From Burkholderiales bacterium (GTDB taxonomy: Bacteria; Pseudomonadota; Gammaproteobacteria; Burkholderiales; SG8-39), in assembly GCA_035550695.1 (NCBI GenBank), contig DASZOS010000051.1:13519-77518 (forward strand): a stretch of 64,000 nucleotides of DNA. Reading direction: 5' to 3'. Of the stretch, positions 39,688 to 46,299 are shown in pieces. The notes beneath the pieces were generated by a model. It was not told the DNA's origin and did not search any database. It worked only from the letters and a program-made list of their open reading frames with translations. How positions within the stretch are numbered: the first letter of the stretch is position 1; the number at the start of each line of letters is the position of its first letter. The translations under genes were made by a program, and so were the position numbers.

Positions 39688-40230
39688 ATGGCCGAACGCC
39701 CGCAGCAGCTCGCGCACCTCGAGTTCCTGGGTGACGCGCTGCGCTTCGCGAACCAGATCCACGCGCTGATCCCGAAGTGCCCCCTGCTGGAGAATTTTTC
39801 CTCCGAGGAGGTGAGGCTGCTCGCGCACTTCTTGGAGGTGTACCGCGCCGAGCCGGCGATCGAGATCATCCGCGAGGGCGACGGCGGCGACTTCATGCTG
39901 ATGATCGTCGAAGGCAAGGTCGAAGTGCAGAAGCGCGATCGCTGGAACACGCCGCAGCTCATGGCGGTGGTCGAGGCCGGACAGTCGCTGGGTGAAATGT
40001 CGATGATCGACGGCGAGCCGCGCTTCGCCACCTGCGTGGCGACGCAGCCGACCCTCATCGCCGTGCTGCACCGCGAGAGCCTGGCGCGCATCATCGTCGA
40101 GCAGCCGATGCTCGGCGCCAAGATCCTGATGGAGCTCGTGCTCATGCTCTCGCAGCGGCTGCGCGCCACGGGCGAGCGGCTGCTCGGCCTGATGGACGAG
40201 CACTCGCAGCCGGCCGCGCCGCTGCTGTAA
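39688..40230 (+). CDS. cyclic nucleotide-binding domain protein
   Basis: 180 aa; cNMP-binding fold signature IIREGDGGDFMLMIVEGKVEV...GEMSMIDGEPRFATCVA. Confidence 0.8.
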   Translation: MAERPQQLAHLEFLGDALRFANQIHALIPKCPLLENFSSEEVRLLAHFLEVYRAEPAIEIIREGDGGDFMLMIVEGKVEVQKRDRWNTPQLMAVVEAGQSLGEMSMIDGEPRFATCVATQPTLIAVLHRESLARIIVEQPMLGAKILMELVLMLSQRLRATGERLLGLMDEHSQPAAPLL

Positions 40231-40260
40231 GCTGCGCGCCGGGTCGCCCGACTAGACACC

Positions 40261-41223
40261 ATGCACGCAACGCTTCCCCTCATGCGCAGTTACGGCTTTC
40301 CGGCGCTCGCCCGCGGCCGGCTGGAGACGCTGCAGGTCAACCTCGGCTACAAGTGCAACCAGAGCTGCCTGCACTGCCACGTCAACGCCGGCCCGACCCG
40401 CACGGAGAGCATGTCGGCCGAGGTCGTTGCAGACGTGCTCACCGTGATCGCGCTCGCCTCCATCAAGACGCTCGACGTGACGGGCGGGGCGCCCGAGCTG
40501 CACCCGCGGTTCCGCAGCCTGGTCGCGCGCGCACGCGAGCTCGGCGCGCGGGTCATCGACCGCTGCAATCTCACGGTGCTCCTCGAGCCGGGCCAGGCCG
40601 ATCTGGGCGCTTTCCTGGCGGCGCGCAAGGTCGAGCTGACCGCATCGTTGCCGTGCTACAGCGAGGAGCTGGTCGACCGCCAGCGCGGCAAGGGGGTCTA
40701 CGCGAAAAGCATCGAGGCGCTGAAGCAGCTGAACGCGCTCGGCTACGGCGCGGCCGGCAGCGGTCTCGTCCTCAACCTGGTCTACAACCCGCAAGGCGCC
40801 TCGCTGCCGCCGCCGCAAGCGGCGCTGGAGGCCGAGTACAAGCGCGTCCTGGGCGAGCGCTTCGGCGTGGTGTTCAACCGGCTGCTCGTGCTCGCCAACA
40901 TGCCGATCCAGCGCTTCGGCTCCACGCTCATCTCCAAGGGCAGATTCAACGAGTACATGGCGCTGCTGCACGGCGCGCATCGCGACGAGAATCTCGGCGC
41001 GGTGATGTGCCGAACCCTGGTGTCGGTCGACTGGCAGGGCTACCTCTACGACTGCGACTTCAACCAGATGCTCGGCCTGCCGCTCGCGCTGCCCGGCGGC
41101 AAGAGGGCAGCGCTTTCGGACCTCATCGGGCGCGATGTCACGGGCAACCCGATCGCCGTGCGCGACCACTGCTACGGCTGCACCGCGGGTCAGGGTTCCT
41201 CTTGCGGCGGAGCGCTCGCGTGA
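40261..41223 (+). CDS. radical SAM/Cys-rich domain protein (ArsS-like)
   Basis: 320 aa; CNQSCLHC radical SAM cluster motif; C-terminal HCYGCTAGQGSSCGG. Confidence 0.8.
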   Translation: MHATLPLMRSYGFPALARGRLETLQVNLGYKCNQSCLHCHVNAGPTRTESMSAEVVADVLTVIALASIKTLDVTGGAPELHPRFRSLVARARELGARVIDRCNLTVLLEPGQADLGAFLAARKVELTASLPCYSEELVDRQRGKGVYAKSIEALKQLNALGYGAAGSGLVLNLVYNPQGASLPPPQAALEAEYKRVLGERFGVVFNRLLVLANMPIQRFGSTLISKGRFNEYMALLHGAHRDENLGAVMCRTLVSVDWQGYLYDCDFNQMLGLPLALPGGKRAALSDLIGRDVTGNPIAVRDHCYGCTAGQGSSCGGALA

Positions 41224-44284: not shown

Positions 44285-45033
44285 TCCTCGCGCTATTGCT
44301 GTGGCTGCCGCTCGCCTGCCACGGCTTCGAGCACAAGGCGTGGGACGAGCTGCTGAAAAAGCACGTCGTGCTGCTCGACGATGGAAAGGCTTCGCAGCTG
44401 CGCTACTCGGCCATGGCGCAGGAGCGTACGGCGCTGAAAAAGTACCTGGAAGCGCTTTCGAGGGTGGCGCCGGCCGAATTTACCCGATGGTCCCGAGCCG
44501 AGCAGATGGCCTTTCTCATCAACGCCTACAACGCCTTCACGGTCGAGAAGATCCTCACGCGCTACCCGGAGATCCGCTCGATCTGGGACTTCGGTCGTCT
44601 CATCGGCAACCCGTTCAAGGACGAGTTCTTCCTCCTGCTCGGAGAAAAACGAAGCCTCGACTGGATCGAGCACGAGAGCCTGCGGAAAAACTACGGCGAC
44701 CCGAGAGTGCATTACGCGGTGAACTGCGCCTCGGTGGGCTGCCCGATGCTGCGCGAGGAGGCTTACGCTGCGGCGCGGCTCGATGCGCAGCTCGAGGAGC
44801 AGGCGCGGCGCTTCCTGTCGGACCGAAGCCGCAACCGGCTGCGCGGAGCGCGGCTCGAGGTGTCGAAGATCTTCGACTGGTTCAGCAAGGACTTCGAGCC
44901 GCGCGATGGGTACTTCGCGCGCTACGCCGAGGTCCTCGGCGAGGACGCCAGAGAGCGCGGCGCGATCCGCGCCGGCGGATATTCGCTTCACTTTCTCGAT
45001 TACGATTGGTCGCTGAACGACGCAAAGAGATGA
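44269..45033 (+). CDS. DUF547 domain protein (secreted)
   Basis: ATG at 44269 overlaps the upstream gene by 16 nt; signal peptide; FLINAYNAFT and HYAVNCASVGCP motifs. Confidence 0.75.
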   Translation: MDARLILALLLWLPLACHGFEHKAWDELLKKHVVLLDDGKASQLRYSAMAQERTALKKYLEALSRVAPAEFTRWSRAEQMAFLINAYNAFTVEKILTRYPEIRSIWDFGRLIGNPFKDEFFLLLGEKRSLDWIEHESLRKNYGDPRVHYAVNCASVGCPMLREEAYAAARLDAQLEEQARRFLSDRSRNRLRGARLEVSKIFDWFSKDFEPRDGYFARYAEVLGEDARERGAIRAGGYSLHFLDYDWSLNDAKR

Positions 45034-45692
45034 AGCTCGCCGTCATCATTCCCGCGCTGAACGAGGCACGGCGCATCCGCGCCGCCCTCGAAGCGCTCGC
45101 GCCGCTGCGCGCGCGCGGCCACGAGGTGATCGTGGCCGACGGCGGCAGCGACGATGGGACGCCCCGGCTCGCGCAGGGCCTGTGCGACCGGATCGTTGGC
45201 GGCGCGCGCGGCAGGGCGCGGCAGATGAACGAGGGGGCGCGCGCGGCGAGCGCCGATGCGCTCGTCTTCCTGCACGCGGACACGCGCCTGCCGGCGAACG
45301 CCGACGCGCTGATCGCCTCGGCTCTGAGCGGCTCCTGCTGGGGCAGGTTCGATGTCGCGATAGACGCCAGTCACCCGCTCCTCAGGGTCGTCGCCCGGGC
45401 GATGAGCCTGCGCTCGCGCCTCACCGGCATTGCGACCGGCGATCAGGCGATCTTCGTGCGGCGCGACGCCTTCGAAGGCTTTCCCGAGATTGCTCTCATG
45501 GAAGACATTGCGTTCAGCAAGGCGATGAAGCGGCGGGCTGCGCCCGCCTGCCTGCGCGCGCGCGTGCGGACTTCGGGGCGGCGCTGGGAGTCGCGCGGCG
45601 TCCTGAGAACCATACTGCTCATGTGGCGGCTGCGCCTGTTGTACTTCCTCGGCGCGCGACCGGAGCGCCTTGCGCGCCTGTACGAATCTTGA
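45030..45692 (+). CDS. family 2 glycosyltransferase-like transferase
   Basis: ATGA overlap; AVIIPALNE...VIVADGGSDDGT...FLHADT. Confidence 0.8.
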   Translation: MKLAVIIPALNEARRIRAALEALAPLRARGHEVIVADGGSDDGTPRLAQGLCDRIVGGARGRARQMNEGARAASADALVFLHADTRLPANADALIASALSGSCWGRFDVAIDASHPLLRVVARAMSLRSRLTGIATGDQAIFVRRDAFEGFPEIALMEDIAFSKAMKRRAAPACLRARVRTSGRRWESRGVLRTILLMWRLRLLYFLGARPERLARLYES

Positions 45693-46299
45693 TGTAGCGA
45701 TATTGGTGTTCGCGCGCGAGCCGATTCCCGGGCGCGCCAAGACGCGCCTCATCCCGCGGCTCGGCGCGTTCCAGGCCGCCCGGCTGCACGCGCGGCTTAC
45801 CGCGCACGCCATGCACACCGCGGCGGCGGCGGCCTGCGGCCCGGTGGAACTCCACGACACGGCGAAGCAGCGCGGCGCGGACCTCGGCAGCCGCATGTAT
45901 CACGCCTTGTCCGGCGCGTTGCGCCGGCACCGCGGCGCTATCCTCGTCGGCACCGATTGCCCGGCGCTGCGGCCATCGGACCTGCGGCGCGCCGCGCGGC
46001 TGCTCGCGGGCGGCTGCGAGGCAGTGCTCGCCCCGGTCGAGGACGGCGGCTACGTGCTGATCGGCGTGCGGCGCGCGTCGCCGCGCCTTTTCGCCGGCAT
46101 CGAATGGGGCGGTCCCGGCGTTTACGCCGCGACTGCGCAAAGGCTCGATTCGCTGGCGTACCGCTGGCGCGCGCTGCGAATGCTCTGGGATGTCGACCGG
46201 CCCGAAGACCTGGAGCGGCTCAGATCGCTCCGCTTTTCTTCAATACCGTTGCGACGCGCTCGGCGATCACCCGGTAGCCGGCCGCGTTGGGGTGGATAG
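45670..46299 (+). CDS. DUF2064 (CofC-like) transferase
   Basis: AILVFAREPIPGRAKTRL N-terminus, ILVGTDCP, EDGGYVLIG; TTG start overlaps the upstream gene. Confidence 0.75.
   Translation: MRACTNLDVAILVFAREPIPGRAKTRLIPRLGAFQAARLHARLTAHAMHTAAAAACGPVELHDTAKQRGADLGSRMYHALSGALRRHRGAILVGTDCPALRPSDLRRAARLLAGGCEAVLAPVEDGGYVLIGVRRASPRLFAGIEWGGPGVYAATAQRLDSLAYRWRALRMLWDVDRPEDLERLRSLRFSSIPLRRARRSPGSRPRWGG

What the first reader, a model, noticed from the sequence alone, without database searches (positions are those of the whole stretch)
39688..46299. Translationally coupled operon around an ArsS-like radical SAM/Cys-rich enzyme with no known product
Seven same-strand genes are separated by gaps of 30 nt or less, or by start/stop overlaps. 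The overlaps are GTGA at 41220-41223 and 42158-42161, 16 nt at 44269-44284, ATGA at 45030-45033 and 23 nt at 45670-45692. In order they encode: a cNMP-binding protein; a radical SAM enzyme (CNQSCLHC, with Cys-rich tail HCYGCTAGQGSSCGG); a calcineurin-like metallophosphoesterase-like protein; a DedA/TVP38 membrane domain fused to a flavoprotein disulfide reductase (GGDCLNTGCVPSK); a secreted DUF547 protein; a GT2-like transferase; and a DUF2064 CofC-like transferase. From memory, comparative genomics labels this gene set 'radical SAM/selenodomain-associated' (transferase 1 and transferase 2). Only the radical SAM member has a biochemical precedent, the cyanobacterial arsenosugar enzyme ArsS, which acts after ArsM. 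This window has no arsM, ars resistance genes or selenium-activation genes, so the substrate and product are open. The combination of two transferases, a phosphoesterase, a membrane-anchored disulfide reductase and a radical SAM enzyme suggests a multi-step pathway to a membrane-associated, possibly metalloid- or sulfur-containing glycoconjugate. This is my best candidate for an undescribed system in the window.
Basis: partly seen in the sequence, partly recalled or inferred. Interest (0 to 1): 0.72.

Follow-up and report, generated by a model that had tools for sequence, protein, structure and literature searches.

The report
ArsS-type arsenosugar-like biosynthesis operon
This is a real, tightly packed seven-gene operon built around an ArsS-type radical SAM enzyme; databases already label the gene set as arsenic-sugar biosynthesis, but only the first chemical step has been shown anywhere, and three of the genes here have no known role.

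Summary
Seven + strand genes lie at 39688-46299 with exactly the overlaps reported, and six family calls are confirmed by HMMs. The seventh (g3, "phosphoesterase-like") matches no Pfam or NCBIfam model but has a metallophosphoesterase fold.

NCBIfam now names three of the seven genes as arsenosugar biosynthesis: ArsS, TIGR04283 and TIGR04282. In 82 ArsS loci from other Pseudomonadota the same genes recur. Eleven loci carry an ArsM-type arsenite methyltransferase and seven an MTAP phosphorylase inside the cluster. ArsS proteins from loci with and without ArsM are interleaved in a tree. So this is a member of a known, arsenic-linked gene set, not an undescribed system.

What remains open:
- The window has no arsM, ars or sel genes.
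- The steps after ArsS are uncharacterised.
- g3 is an unnamed, Cys-rich, half-degenerate metallophosphoesterase. It is fused to ArsS or DUF2064 in some predicted proteins and never shares a locus with ArsM.
- The roles of the DedA-disulfide reductase fusion and of DUF547 are unknown.

Best reading (0.55): an arsenosugar or arsenolipid-type pathway with an accessory thiol/membrane module. Interest is moderate.

The parts
38559..39668 (+). aroG (DAHP synthase). This is the upstream neighbour and is possibly co-transcribed. It is syntenic context rather than a pathway member.
   Evidence: TIGR00034 scores 535 bits. The gene ends 19 nt before g1 with no terminator-like site between them. The adjacency is conserved in L001, L086 and L170, but a PMT_2 plus UbiA pair is inserted between aroG and g1 in L003, L006-L008 and L171.
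39688..40230 (+). g1: stand-alone cyclic-nucleotide-binding domain protein (180 aa, no DNA-binding domain). Presumed regulator or sensor.
   Evidence: Pfam cNMP_binding matches at 2.8e-15, with no other domain. It is found next to ArsS only in the closest relatives: L001 and L003-L009, L086, L170, L171, and several metagenome loci.
40261..41223 (+). g2: ArsS-family radical SAM enzyme, the Cys form of the Cys/Sec C-terminal motif.
   Evidence: TIGR04167 scores 447.5 bits against a cutoff of 300. Radical_SAM and DUF3641 both match (1.1e-52 for DUF3641). It carries CNQSCLHC and ...HCYGCTAGQGSSCGGALA. It is 61-78% identical to ArsS in 80 species-representative genomes.
41220..42161 (+). g3: unnamed Cys-rich protein with a metallophosphoesterase fold in which half of the dinuclear metal site is replaced.
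   Evidence: - No Pfam or NCBIfam hit, even at E 0.05, and no PDB sequence hit.
- AF2 model: pLDDT 87, pTM 0.90.
- Foldseek top hits are SapH Ap4A hydrolase (3qfn/3qfm), PH1004 and 3rqz, with E 1e-10 to 1e-8 and TM 0.59/0.72 for the best hit.
- Invariant across the family: Y37, D64, N91, E93, C105, C107, H162, H203. C8 is kept in 53/56 sequences and C205 in 51/56.
- Fusions to ArsS (P0321, P0336) and to DUF2064 (P0244) exist among predicted proteins.
- ArsS lies next to g3 in 37 of 49 g3-centred metagenome loci.
42158..44284 (+). g4: N-terminal DedA/VTT membrane domain fused to a class I FAD/NAD(P)H pyridine-nucleotide disulfide reductase. It is not MerA.
   Evidence: VTT_dom matches at 1.2e-20 (aa 71-184). 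Pyr_redox_2 matches at 8e-65 and Pyr_redox_dim at 1.1e-28. The best NCBIfam model is NF004991, 'FAD-containing oxidoreductase', at 509 bits; MerA scores below its cutoff. The CLNTGC redox pair is present and there is no C-terminal Cys pair. It sits in the cluster in about 45 of 82 ArsS loci, some as reductase-only homologues.
44269..45033 (+). g5: exported DUF547 protein with an invariant C153-x4-C158-P motif.
   Evidence: Pfam DUF547 matches at 9.1e-27. The N-terminus MDARLILALLLWLPLACHG reads as a signal peptide, and homologues have AxA before the mature part. It is present in about 13 of 82 ArsS loci, mostly between g4 and g6. It is absent from the closest relatives L001 and L086 and present in L170 and L171.
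45030..45692 (+). g6: TIGR04283 GT2-type glycosyltransferase ('transferase 2').
   Evidence: TIGR04283 scores 253.8 bits against a cutoff of 182. Glycos_transf_2 matches at 7.1e-14. It lies in the ArsS locus in 54 of 82 cases.
45670..46299 (+). g7: TIGR04282 / DUF2064 CofC-like transferase ('transferase 1').
   Evidence: TIGR04282 scores 166.8 bits against a cutoff of 134. DUF2064 matches at 4.9e-25. It lies in the ArsS locus in 45 of 82 cases. Its 3' end overlaps the convergent GDSL lipase gene, as in L001 and L086.
46220..46822 (-). Convergent GDSL lipase gene. It marks the downstream boundary of the operon.
   Evidence: Lipase_GDSL_2 matches at 5.7e-26. The same convergent arrangement appears in L001, L003, L086 and L170.

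Best explanation
The seven genes are one conserved operon, possibly read through from aroG. It is the betaproteobacterial version of the ArsS gene cluster.

Step 1 is shown for the Synechocystis enzyme and inferred here. g2 (ArsS) reductively cleaves SAM and adds the 5'-deoxyadenosyl radical to the lone pair of a trivalent methylated arsenical. This makes a C-As bond and gives 5'-deoxy-5'-dimethylarsinoyl-adenosine.

Step 2 is inferred from related loci. The adenine is removed by an MTAP-type phosphorylase. That enzyme is encoded in the cluster in other genomes and must be supplied from elsewhere here. The product is a 5-deoxy-5-arsinoyl-ribose (1-phosphate).

Step 3 is inferred. The CofC-like transferase g7 and the GT2 transferase g6 activate this sugar and transfer it to an acceptor such as glycerol, glycerophosphate or a lipid. 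The result is an arsenosugar or arsenosugar-lipid type product.

Step 4 is speculative. g3, g4 and the exported g5 form an accessory thiol/redox and membrane module. g3 keeps one metal site of a phosphoesterase and has four conserved cysteines. g4 is a DedA domain fused to a disulfide reductase. g5 is a DUF547 protein with a CxxxxC motif. Candidate roles are binding or reducing the arsenical that feeds ArsS, or moving a lipid-linked product across the membrane. In this architecture g3 occupies the slot that ArsM holds in other genomes.

g1 is a cyclic-nucleotide-binding regulator or sensor specific to this lineage.
For: - g2 passes the curated ArsS equivalog model (447 bits against a cutoff of 300), and g6 and g7 pass TIGR04283 and TIGR04282.
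- ArsS chemistry is established: DMAs(III) plus SAM gives DDMAA, and arsS is co-transcribed with arsM in Synechocystis. I took this from PMC13598754, PMC12159101, bioRxiv 10.1101/2022.09.23.509062 and PMC8552651.
- Among 82 ArsS loci from other Pseudomonadota (61-90% ArsS identity), GT2 is present in 54, DUF2064 in 45 and the DedA-reductase (or a reductase-only homologue) in 45.
- An ArsM-family methyltransferase that keeps the CC, YGCG, NCV.N and C..GA cysteine motifs is present in 11 loci. MTAP (TIGR01694, 276 bits) is present in 7.
- Four loci (L016, L025, L035, L078) combine ArsM with the full DedA-reductase fusion; three of them carry both transferases and L078 carries GT2 only.
- ArsS proteins from ArsM-type and g3-type loci are interleaved in a neighbour-joining tree.
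- g3 is tied to the pathway. It has GTGA overlaps on both sides here. Fusions g3-ArsS and DUF2064-g3 occur. ArsS is adjacent in 76% of g3-centred loci.
- The exact seven-gene order recurs in L170 and L171.
Against: - There is no arsM, arsR, arsC, acr3/arsB, arsH or MTAP in 64 kb.
- The surrounding genes are housekeeping.
- The in-cluster regulator is a cNMP-binding protein, and related loci have ECF sigma factors. No ArsR, ArsC or Acr3 family appeared among the 25 commonest families of 150 neighbouring ORFs.
- No g3-containing locus (26 genome loci, 80 metagenome loci) has an in-cluster ArsM.
- Eight Pseudomonas-type loci have ArsS-SSF-g3-DedA/reductase-DUF3047 without either transferase.
- The ArsM-like neighbours score below NCBIfam cutoffs.
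- In the literature I could reach, no experiment links TIGR04282, TIGR04283, g3, g4 or g5 to arsenic.
- Arsenosugar production by heterotrophic Betaproteobacteria is not documented in the papers I could search.
Confidence: 0.55

Rival explanations
1. The chemistry is the same but the substrate is different. In the arsM-less, g3-containing clusters the ArsS-family enzyme adenosylates a non-arsenic soft nucleophile, for example a selenium or sulfur species. The operon would then make a 5'-deoxyribosyl (seleno/thio) conjugate or membrane lipid as a normal cell constituent.
For: - The window has no ars genes and a housekeeping context.
- g3 and ArsM never share a locus: 0 of 26 against 11 of 56, Fisher p = 0.014, uncorrected for phylogeny. 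None of the 80 g3-centred loci has ArsM either.
- ArsS and g3 are very strongly conserved across classes of Pseudomonadota.
- Neighbours are thiol/redox proteins, including the TIGR03169 'Nterm_to_SelD' reductase in about 18 loci.
- Burkholderia plasmid versions carry thioredoxin plus CcdA.
- Some TIGR04167 members are selenoproteins.
- Regulators are cNMP-binding proteins or ECF sigma factors, not ArsR.
Against: - ArsS proteins of the two locus types are interleaved and 61-78% identical, which argues for one reaction.
- The DedA-reductase and both transferases also occur together with ArsM.
- No selD or selenium-utilisation gene is in the window.
- No non-arsenic substrate of any ArsS homologue is reported in the papers searched.
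Confidence: 0.22
2. The operon is a composite of two functionally separate modules placed side by side. One is an ArsS plus two-transferase module. The other is a membrane thiol-redox module (g3, DedA-reductase, DUF547) with its own unrelated role, such as envelope or lipid homeostasis under oxidative stress.
For: - ArsS-GT2-DUF2064 occurs without g3 or g4 in many loci.
- About a quarter of g3 loci with enough flank (12 of 49) lack ArsS and sit next to unrelated genes such as MscS-like and MgtE.
- The DedA(COG0398)-reductase fusion is the commonest DedA fusion in bacteria generally (PMC10127716).
- DUF547 is absent from the closest relatives L001 and L086.
Against: - g3 is fused to ArsS and to DUF2064 in some predicted proteins.
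- It is translationally coupled on both sides here.
- It lies directly after ArsS in most loci.
- Pseudomonas-type loci keep ArsS with g3 and the DedA-reductase while dropping the transferases. The redox module therefore follows ArsS, not the transferases.
Confidence: 0.12

Closest known systems
Synechocystis sp. PCC 6803 arsM-arsS arsenosugar pathway (Xue et al. 2019; Cheng et al. 2021, as cited in PMC8552651, PMC12159101, PMC13598754)
   Same: It has an ArsS-family radical SAM enzyme with the DUF3641 Cys-rich C-terminal domain. The expected first step is 5'-deoxyadenosyl transfer to a trivalent arsenical.
   Different: There arsS is co-transcribed with arsM. Here no arsM lies within 64 kb, and the operon carries five further genes that have no assigned step in the cyanobacterial work. 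I did not have the Synechocystis sequence, so I could not measure identity to it.
TIGRFAMs/NCBIfam gene set TIGR04167 + TIGR04282 + TIGR04283 (formerly 'rSAM/selenodomain-associated', now 'arsenosugar biosynthesis')
   Same: All three models are passed above their curated cutoffs and the genes are adjacent. RefSeq annotates the same trio on Burkholderia plasmids.
   Different: The names for the two transferases rest on association; I found no experiment. The set as modelled does not include g3, which has no model and is called 'hypothetical protein' in RefSeq. It also omits the DedA-reductase fusion, DUF547 and the cNMP-binding protein.
Proteobacterial ArsS-ArsM-(DedA/reductase)-GT2-DUF2064 clusters (for example L016, L025, L035, L049, L061)
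   Same: They have the same ArsS (65-69% identity), the same transferases and, in four loci, the same DedA-reductase fusion.
   Different: They carry an ArsM-family methyltransferase and no g3. The window carries g3 and no ArsM, and in L016 ArsM sits in the position that g3 has here.
Calcineurin-like metallophosphoesterases of the Metallophos_2 / SapH (Ap4A hydrolase) type
   Same: g3 has the same fold (Foldseek E 1e-10). It keeps the motif II Asp, motif III Asn, motif IV His and the first His of motif V.
   Different: Motif I Asp and His are Gly and Tyr. The catalytic His of GNH[DE] is Val. The second His of motif V is Cys. An invariant GCGC loop and an N-terminal Cys are added. No HMM-level membership was found.
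HpnH/HpnG adenosylhopane route to bacteriohopanepolyols (from my own knowledge, not tested here)
   Same: The logic is the same. A radical SAM enzyme adds the whole 5'-deoxyadenosyl group to a substrate, a nucleosidase or phosphorylase removes adenine, and the ribosyl unit is elaborated further by a GT2 enzyme on a membrane lipid.
   Different: The radical SAM family is different and the acceptor is carbon (a hopene double bond). No sequence relationship was tested.
DedA COG0398 subfamily fused to pyridine nucleotide-disulfide oxidoreductase (PMC10127716)
   Same: g4 has exactly this domain fusion.
   Different: The fusion has no known function. Its recurrent placement inside ArsS clusters is not discussed in that paper.

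Membership tests
ArsS (TIGR04167, arsenosugar biosynthesis radical SAM (seleno)protein) | Whole-protein HMM score above the curated equivalog cutoff | tested here: met
   447.5 bits against a cutoff of 300, covering model positions 2-303 of 303.
ArsS (TIGR04167, arsenosugar biosynthesis radical SAM (seleno)protein) | CX3CX2C radical SAM motif plus the DUF3641 C-terminal domain with a Cys/Sec-rich tail (GSS[C/U]GG) | tested here: met
   C32-NQS-C36-LH-C39 is present. DUF3641 matches at 1.1e-52. The tail is HCYGCTAGQGSSCGG, the Cys form. 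The GxxU form is listed for this family in PMC13188914.
ArsS (TIGR04167, arsenosugar biosynthesis radical SAM (seleno)protein) | Catalyses 5'-deoxyadenosyl transfer to DMAs(III) | not testable with these tools
   This needs an enzyme assay. I have only homology to the family.
arsM-arsS arsenosugar gene pair (Synechocystis type) | arsS adjacent to and co-transcribed with an arsenite methyltransferase | tested here: not met
   No ArsM-like gene is in the 64-kb window (Pfam/NCBIfam scans; tblastn). The feature is met in 11 of 82 related loci.
TIGR04283 arsenosugar biosynthesis glycosyltransferase (GT2) | HMM above the curated cutoff and adjacency to ArsS | tested here: met
   253.8 bits against a cutoff of 182. 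It lies in the same operon.
TIGR04282 arsenosugar biosynthesis glycosyltransferase (DUF2064, CofC-like) | HMM above the curated cutoff and adjacency to ArsS | tested here: met
   166.8 bits against a cutoff of 134. It lies in the same operon.
Calcineurin-like metallophosphoesterase (PF00149 / PF12850) | Sequence-profile membership | tested here: not met
   g3 has no Pfam or NCBIfam hit. A few homologues carry weak PF12850 or PF00149 hits.
Calcineurin-like metallophosphoesterase (PF00149 / PF12850) | Four-layer alpha/beta sandwich fold | tested here: met
   The AF2 model has pLDDT 87. Foldseek matches SapH, PH1004 and 3rqz with E 1e-10 to 1e-8 and probability 1.0.
Calcineurin-like metallophosphoesterase (PF00149 / PF12850) | Complete dinuclear metal site and catalytic His (motifs GDxHG, GDxxDR, GNH[DE], H, GHxH) | tested here: not met
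   Motif I is AGGLYGN, motif III is GNVE and motif V is SHxC. Only D64, N91, H162 and H203 are kept. I read the motif correspondence from the sequence and the secondary-structure order, not from a superposition.
Mercuric reductase MerA | HMM above cutoff and a C-terminal Cys pair | tested here: not met
   TIGR02053 scores 377.8 bits against a cutoff of 454. The C-terminus has no Cys pair.
Class I pyridine nucleotide-disulfide oxidoreductase | Pyr_redox_2 and dimerisation domains plus a CxxxxC redox-active disulfide | tested here: met
   Pyr_redox_2 matches at 8e-65 and Pyr_redox_dim at 1.1e-28. CLNTGC is present.
DedA / VTT (PF09335) | VTT domain above the gathering score | tested here: met
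   74.6 bits against a gathering score of 33.9, at aa 71-184 of g4.
CRP/FNR transcription factors | cNMP-binding domain followed by a C-terminal helix-turn-helix | tested here: not met
   g1 is 180 aa and has only the cNMP_binding domain. CRP and FtrB models score far below their cutoffs.

The most novel reading that the evidence does not exclude
In clusters of this architecture, g3 replaces ArsM as the front end of the pathway, working with the DedA-disulfide reductase and, in some genomes, an SSF transporter. g3 is a Cys-rich protein with a single remaining metal site on a phosphoesterase fold. One possibility is that this module takes up, binds and reduces a pentavalent methylated arsenical to feed ArsS. 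That would identify the unassigned bacterial methylarsenate/dimethylarsenate reductase. The other possibility is that it delivers a non-arsenic (selenium or sulfur) substrate, so that the operon makes a previously unknown 5'-deoxyribosyl membrane conjugate in heterotrophic bacteria.
Probability: 0.15. Interest if true: 0.75.

Novelty: new member of a known kind. Interest (0 to 1): 0.4.

Why it matters
Only the ArsM and ArsS steps of the arsenosugar pathway have enzymes assigned in the papers I could search. Removal of adenine and attachment of the ribosyl unit to glycerol, phosphate or lipid acceptors remain unassigned. This operon and its relatives give a short list of candidates for those steps: MTAP, TIGR04282, TIGR04283, g3, the DedA-reductase fusion and DUF547.

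The comparison also shows that the gene set is widespread in heterotrophic Pseudomonadota, not only in cyanobacteria. If these bacteria make arsenosugars or arsenolipids, that bears on environmental arsenic cycling.

The new, testable point from this work concerns g3. It is a family with no database model (about 1,170 representatives at 50% identity). It is physically fused to ArsS in some predicted proteins and never shares a locus with ArsM. None of this is specific to this window, which is one ordinary member of a large set.

Tried and rejected
- Exact-sequence look-up of g2 in the assembly collection found nothing on record, so I took context from homologues.
- HMMER profile of the g3 family against PDB sequences gave nothing significant. 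The best hit was a 31-residue match to the C-terminus of cyclopropane-fatty-acyl-phospholipid synthase at E 0.28, which I treat as chance.
- NCBIfam at E 0.05 gave nothing for g3.
- phmmer of ArsS against PDB sequences found only distant radical SAM relatives (YydG); no ArsS structure was among the hits.
- The DUF547 AF2 model has pLDDT 82, but Foldseek against the PDB had a best E of 2.4, so the fold gave no clue. The conserved CxxxxC loop is the low-confidence part of the model.
- The sigma-70 promoter scan of 38000-47500 found no sites. The terminator-like sites inside the operon look like chance matches.
- Rfam (gathering scores) and ARAGORN on the whole window found nothing.
- Xue et al. 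2019 (PMC6467767) is not held, so I took its content from citing papers.
- Literature searches for DUF3641, the TIGR accessions, DDMAA and DedA-reductase fusions turned up only annotation-level mentions.
- Neighbours of the 12 'orphan' g3 loci are an MscS-like channel, MgtE and an unidentified protein. They were uninformative.
- g4 as MerA: rejected, because it scores below cutoff and has no C-terminal Cys pair.
- The AIRS-domain gene at 19226-20104 as SelD: rejected, because it is ThiL.
- g7 as a truncated pseudogene: rejected. The two-stretch HMM match is offset by only about 8 residues, and full-length orthologues of the same size exist.
- I could not obtain model coordinates, so the idea that C8, C105, C107 and C205 cluster at the lost metal site is untested.

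Full report
OBSERVATION

The g1-g2 gap is 30 nt. There is a GTGA overlap at 41220-41223 and another at 42158-42161, a 16-nt overlap at 44269-44284, ATGA at 45030-45033, and a 23-nt overlap at 45670-45692.

The non-ATG starts are supported by conservation. The GTG at 41220 is needed to include the nearly invariant PGRxCP motif of g3. The first seven residues of g2 are invariant among homologues. No alternative start between 45670 and 45703 would keep the first conserved strand of g7, and a GGAG lies just upstream.

A codon-usage gene call finds 66 genes in the window. Many have 4-nt overlaps, so the packing indicates an operon but is not exceptional for this genome. aroG (TIGR00034, 535 bits) ends 19 nt before g1 with no terminator-like site between them. 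The transcription unit may therefore start at aroG.

FAMILY ASSIGNMENTS

- g1: cNMP_binding only.
- g2: TIGR04167 ArsS, 447.5 bits (cutoff 300), plus DUF3641.
- g4: VTT/DedA domain fused to a class I pyridine-nucleotide disulfide reductase. It is below the MerA cutoff and has no C-terminal Cys pair.
- g5: DUF547 with a signal-peptide-like N-terminus.
- g6: TIGR04283, 253.8 bits (cutoff 182).
- g7: TIGR04282, 166.8 bits (cutoff 134).
- g3: no hit in Pfam or NCBIfam, even at E 0.05, and none against PDB sequences.

NCBIfam release 20 names TIGR04167, TIGR04283 and TIGR04282 as arsenosugar biosynthesis proteins. RefSeq annotates plasmid copies that way and calls g3 'hypothetical protein'.

THE REST OF THE WINDOW

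Pfam and NCBIfam scans of almost all the other called genes show housekeeping functions. They include secA, argJ, ffh, trmD, ribBA, ribH, nusB, thiL, pgpA, an AmmeMemoRadiSam trio, recA, recX, alaS, tctBA, lpxK, kdsB, adk, an H+-pyrophosphatase and ggt.

There is no arsM, arsR, arsC, acr3/arsB, arsH or selD. The only AIRS-type protein is ThiL (TIGR01379, 309 bits). tblastn with ArsM-like, MTAP, TIGR03169, DUF3047 and SSF seeds taken from related loci finds nothing in the window. Rfam and ARAGORN also find nothing.

g3

The family is large and strongly conserved. More than 6,600 clusters at 90% identity match, and the best 120 are 66-93% identical to the window protein. In the library clustered at 50% identity, 1,174 representatives match at E <= 1e-3 and 384 at E <= 1e-30.

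An AlphaFold2 model built on 44 homologues is confident (pLDDT 87, pTM 0.90). It matches solved metallophosphoesterases: SapH Ap4A hydrolase 3qfn/3qfm at E 1e-10 with TM 0.59/0.72, then PH1004, Pfu-1218608 and 3rqz.

The active site is only half kept. I read the motifs against the order of strands in the model:
- Motif I is AGGLYGN, so the Asp and His are lost and Tyr37 is invariant.
- Motif II keeps Asp64.
- Motif III is GNVE, so Asn91 is kept and the catalytic His is Val.
- Motif IV keeps His162.
- Motif V is SHxC, so His203 is kept and the second His is Cys205.

An extra loop, G104-C105-G106-C107-x-Y-P, is invariant across 56 diverse members (33-66% identity). Cys8 is kept in 53 of 56 and Cys205 in 51 of 56. 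So g3 looks like a protein with one remaining metal site plus four conserved cysteines. I could not get model coordinates, so whether those cysteines cluster is untested.

Domain fusions among the representatives tie g3 to the pathway. P0321 (688 aa) and P0336 (616 aa) are g3 followed by Radical_SAM plus DUF3641. P0244 (542 aa) is DUF2064 followed by g3. These are predicted proteins from assemblies, so a missed stop codon cannot be excluded. However, the g3-then-ArsS order differs from the window order, which argues against a simple read-through artefact.

GENE NEIGHBOURHOODS

Close relatives reproduce the cluster in the same chromosomal setting: recA-recX-alaS-AAA-aroG-[cluster]-GDSL lipase(-)-tctBA. 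These are L001, L086, L170 and L171, with ArsS 90-92% identical in L001 and L086 and g3 66-84% identical in L001, L170 and L171. DUF547 is present in L170 and L171 and absent in L001 and L086. Several relatives insert a PMT_2 (GT-C) plus UbiA pair between aroG and g1 and add DUF3047 after g7.

The best 80 are all from Pseudomonadota (apart from one short contig binned as Deinococcota), spanning beta, gamma, alpha and zeta classes at 61-78% identity.

I mapped seed proteins onto these 80 loci plus L001 and L003, 82 loci in all:

| Feature in the ArsS locus | Loci of 82 |
|---|---|
| GT2 | 54 |
| DUF2064 | 45 |
| DedA-reductase or a reductase-only homologue | 45 |
| g3 | 26 |
| DUF3047 | about 19 |
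| TIGR03169 'Nterm_to_SelD' reductase | about 18 |
| DUF547 | about 13 |
| SSF transporter (usually between ArsS and g3) | about 12 |
| ArsM-family methyltransferase | 11 |
| cNMP-binding protein (closest relatives only) | 7 |
| MTAP (TIGR01694, 276 bits) | 7 |

The methyltransferases score 343 bits on NF040538 and 197 bits on NF008823, below the cutoffs. They keep the four cysteine motifs I know from ArsM: CC, YGCG, NCV.N and C..GA.

Four loci combine ArsM with the full-length DedA-reductase fusion; L016, L025 and L035 also carry both transferases, and L078 carries GT2 only. L016 reads ArsS-ArsM-DedA/reductase-GT2-DUF2064. That is the window's order with ArsM where g3 is.

A neighbour-joining tree of the ArsS proteins does not separate ArsM-type from g3-type loci.

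Among the 150 nearest unassigned neighbouring ORFs, the commonest families are ECF sigma factor domains (8 members). No ArsR, ArsC or Acr3 family is in the top 25.

A g3-centred scan of metagenome contigs shows ArsS in 37 of 49 loci that have at least 1.3 kb of upstream flank. It nearly always lies directly upstream. No ArsM-like gene is in any of the 80 loci. Twelve 'orphan' g3 genes sit in unrelated contexts.

g3 and ArsM never share a locus: 0 of 26 against 11 of 56, Fisher p = 0.014, without correction for phylogeny. Eight Pseudomonas-type loci keep ArsS-SSF-g3-DedA/reductase-DUF3047 but lack both transferases.

On 48 of the 49 Burkholderia plasmids that carry arsS, arsS and g3 are adjacent. 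They are followed by an N1pC/P60 hydrolase, a second radical SAM gene and DUF547. They face a divergent set: thioredoxin, CcdA, an ECF sigma/anti-sigma pair, MFS, MTAP, TIGR04283, TIGR04282 and (in B. glumae) a FAD oxidoreductase. No arsM lies within 9 kb.

LITERATURE

ArsS adds the 5'-deoxyadenosyl radical of SAM to DMAs(III) to give 5'-deoxy-5'-dimethylarsinoyl-adenosine, in a redox-neutral reaction (PMC13598754; Cheng et al. 2021 as cited in PMC12159101). In Synechocystis, arsS is co-transcribed with arsM and is the first committed step to arsenosugars (Xue et al. 2019 via bioRxiv 10.1101/2022.09.23.509062 and PMC8552651).

[quoted passage not shown] I found no experimental work on TIGR04282, TIGR04283, g3 or the DedA-reductase in this context, only annotation-level mentions. 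The DedA(COG0398)-reductase fusion is noted as the commonest DedA fusion, with function unknown (PMC10127716).

INTERPRETATION

The best-supported reading (0.55) is that this operon is a member of the arsenic-linked ArsS gene set. ArsS makes an adenosyl-arsenical. An MTAP-type phosphorylase, not encoded here, removes adenine. The CofC-like and GT2 transferases then attach the 5-deoxy-5-arsinoyl-ribosyl unit to an acceptor, giving an arsenosugar or arsenosugar-lipid type product.

Only the ArsS step has experimental precedent. The rest is inferred from co-occurrence and fold.

g3, the DedA-reductase and the exported DUF547 look like an accessory thiol/redox and membrane module. The Burkholderia version, which uses thioredoxin plus CcdA instead of the DedA-reductase, points the same way.

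The main rival (0.22) is that arsM-less, g3-type clusters act on a different soft nucleophile. The absence of ars genes, the g3/ArsM exclusivity, the non-ArsR regulators and the selenium-flavoured neighbours keep that open. The interleaved ArsS tree and the loci that combine ArsM with the DedA-reductase argue against it.

A composite of two unrelated modules (0.12) is made unlikely by the g3 fusions and by g3's position.

VERDICT

This is a new member of a known kind.

Interest is moderate (0.4). The specific leads are an unnamed, ArsS-linked, Cys-rich phosphoesterase-fold family that takes ArsM's place, and a candidate gene list for the unassigned later steps of arsenosugar synthesis.

Noticed in passing
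window 41220-42161 (g3) and homologues P0001-P0120; g2 C-terminus at 41209-41220: 114 of 120 close g3 homologues end in -AA and 81 end in -LAA; the window protein ends ...ETALAA. This resembles the C-terminal ClpX recognition signal of the ssrA tag (my own knowledge). ArsS homologues also commonly end in -GALAA or -GGALA. The tail is not conserved in the wider g3 family.
   Followed up: partly
L016, L025, L035, L078 against the window; all g3 loci L001-L169: ArsM and g3 never occur in the same locus, and in L016 ArsM sits in the position g3 has in the window. I have no explanation. It may reflect functional replacement or only lineage history.
   Followed up: partly
L003, L004, L006-L008, L104, L115, L138, L166, L171 (between aroG and the cNMP-binding gene): A PMT_2 (GT-C glycosyltransferase) plus UbiA prenyltransferase pair is inserted upstream of the cluster in several relatives but is absent from the window. 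From my own knowledge this pairing recalls polyprenyl-phosphate-linked pentose donors, and it fits a lipid-linked periplasmic step.
   Followed up: no
L087 and L088 (Burkholderia thailandensis and B. glumae plasmids): This is a plasmid-borne variant. arsS, g3, an N1pC/P60 hydrolase, a second radical SAM gene and DUF547 lie on one strand. They face thioredoxin, CcdA, an ECF sigma/anti-sigma pair, MFS, MTAP, TIGR04283, TIGR04282 and (in B. glumae) a FAD oxidoreductase. The region is flanked by IS and Tn3 elements. Thioredoxin plus CcdA replace the DedA-reductase.
   Followed up: partly
L020, L022, L037, L045, L046, L066, L067 (Pseudomonas and relatives): An SSF-family transporter gene lies between ArsS and g3. 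These loci mostly lack both transferases, and several carry DUF3047 after the DedA-reductase.
   Followed up: partly
about 18 related loci, for example L050 7404-8525: A TIGR03169 'Nterm_to_SelD' pyridine nucleotide-disulfide oxidoreductase (337 bits, cutoff 310) often closes the cluster. This family is fused to SelD in some species. It is absent from the window.
   Followed up: no
window 21116-23489: An AmmeMemoRadiSam system. One 438-aa ORF combines protein B (TIGR04336) and protein A (TIGR04335). It is followed by the system's radical SAM enzyme (TIGR04337, 644 bits).
   Followed up: partly
window 24700-25320: A DUF938 protein (2e-73) with a weak Methyltransf_25 match and no NCBIfam family. 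It is not ArsM-like.
   Followed up: partly
window 14353-15282: A 309-aa ORF with strong coding signal and no Pfam or NCBIfam hit, lying between an MFS transporter gene and the rimM-trmD-rplS genes.
   Followed up: no
window 59932-62973: A 1013-aa protein with an N-terminal AAA_16/STAND NTPase domain. It has a partial match to MalT (189 bits, far below the cutoff).
   Followed up: no
window 38518-38533 and 46211-46232: A terminator-like hairpin followed by T9 lies just upstream of aroG. Another lies inside the 3' end of g7, where g7 overlaps the convergent GDSL lipase gene by 80 nt.
   Followed up: no
g3 residues 267-297 (window about 42018-42110): The C-terminal stretch DYD..AW..RF.AQWPEGS..H.SY has a weak local match to the C-terminus of cyclopropane-fatty-acyl-phospholipid synthase (6bqc, E 0.28). 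It is probably chance.
   Followed up: no
L100, L103, L105-L107, L109, L116, L119, L122-L124, L151: Twelve g3 homologues (most 60-66% identical to the window protein) have no ArsS within the sequence available. Several sit beside MscS-like and MgtE genes.
   Followed up: partly
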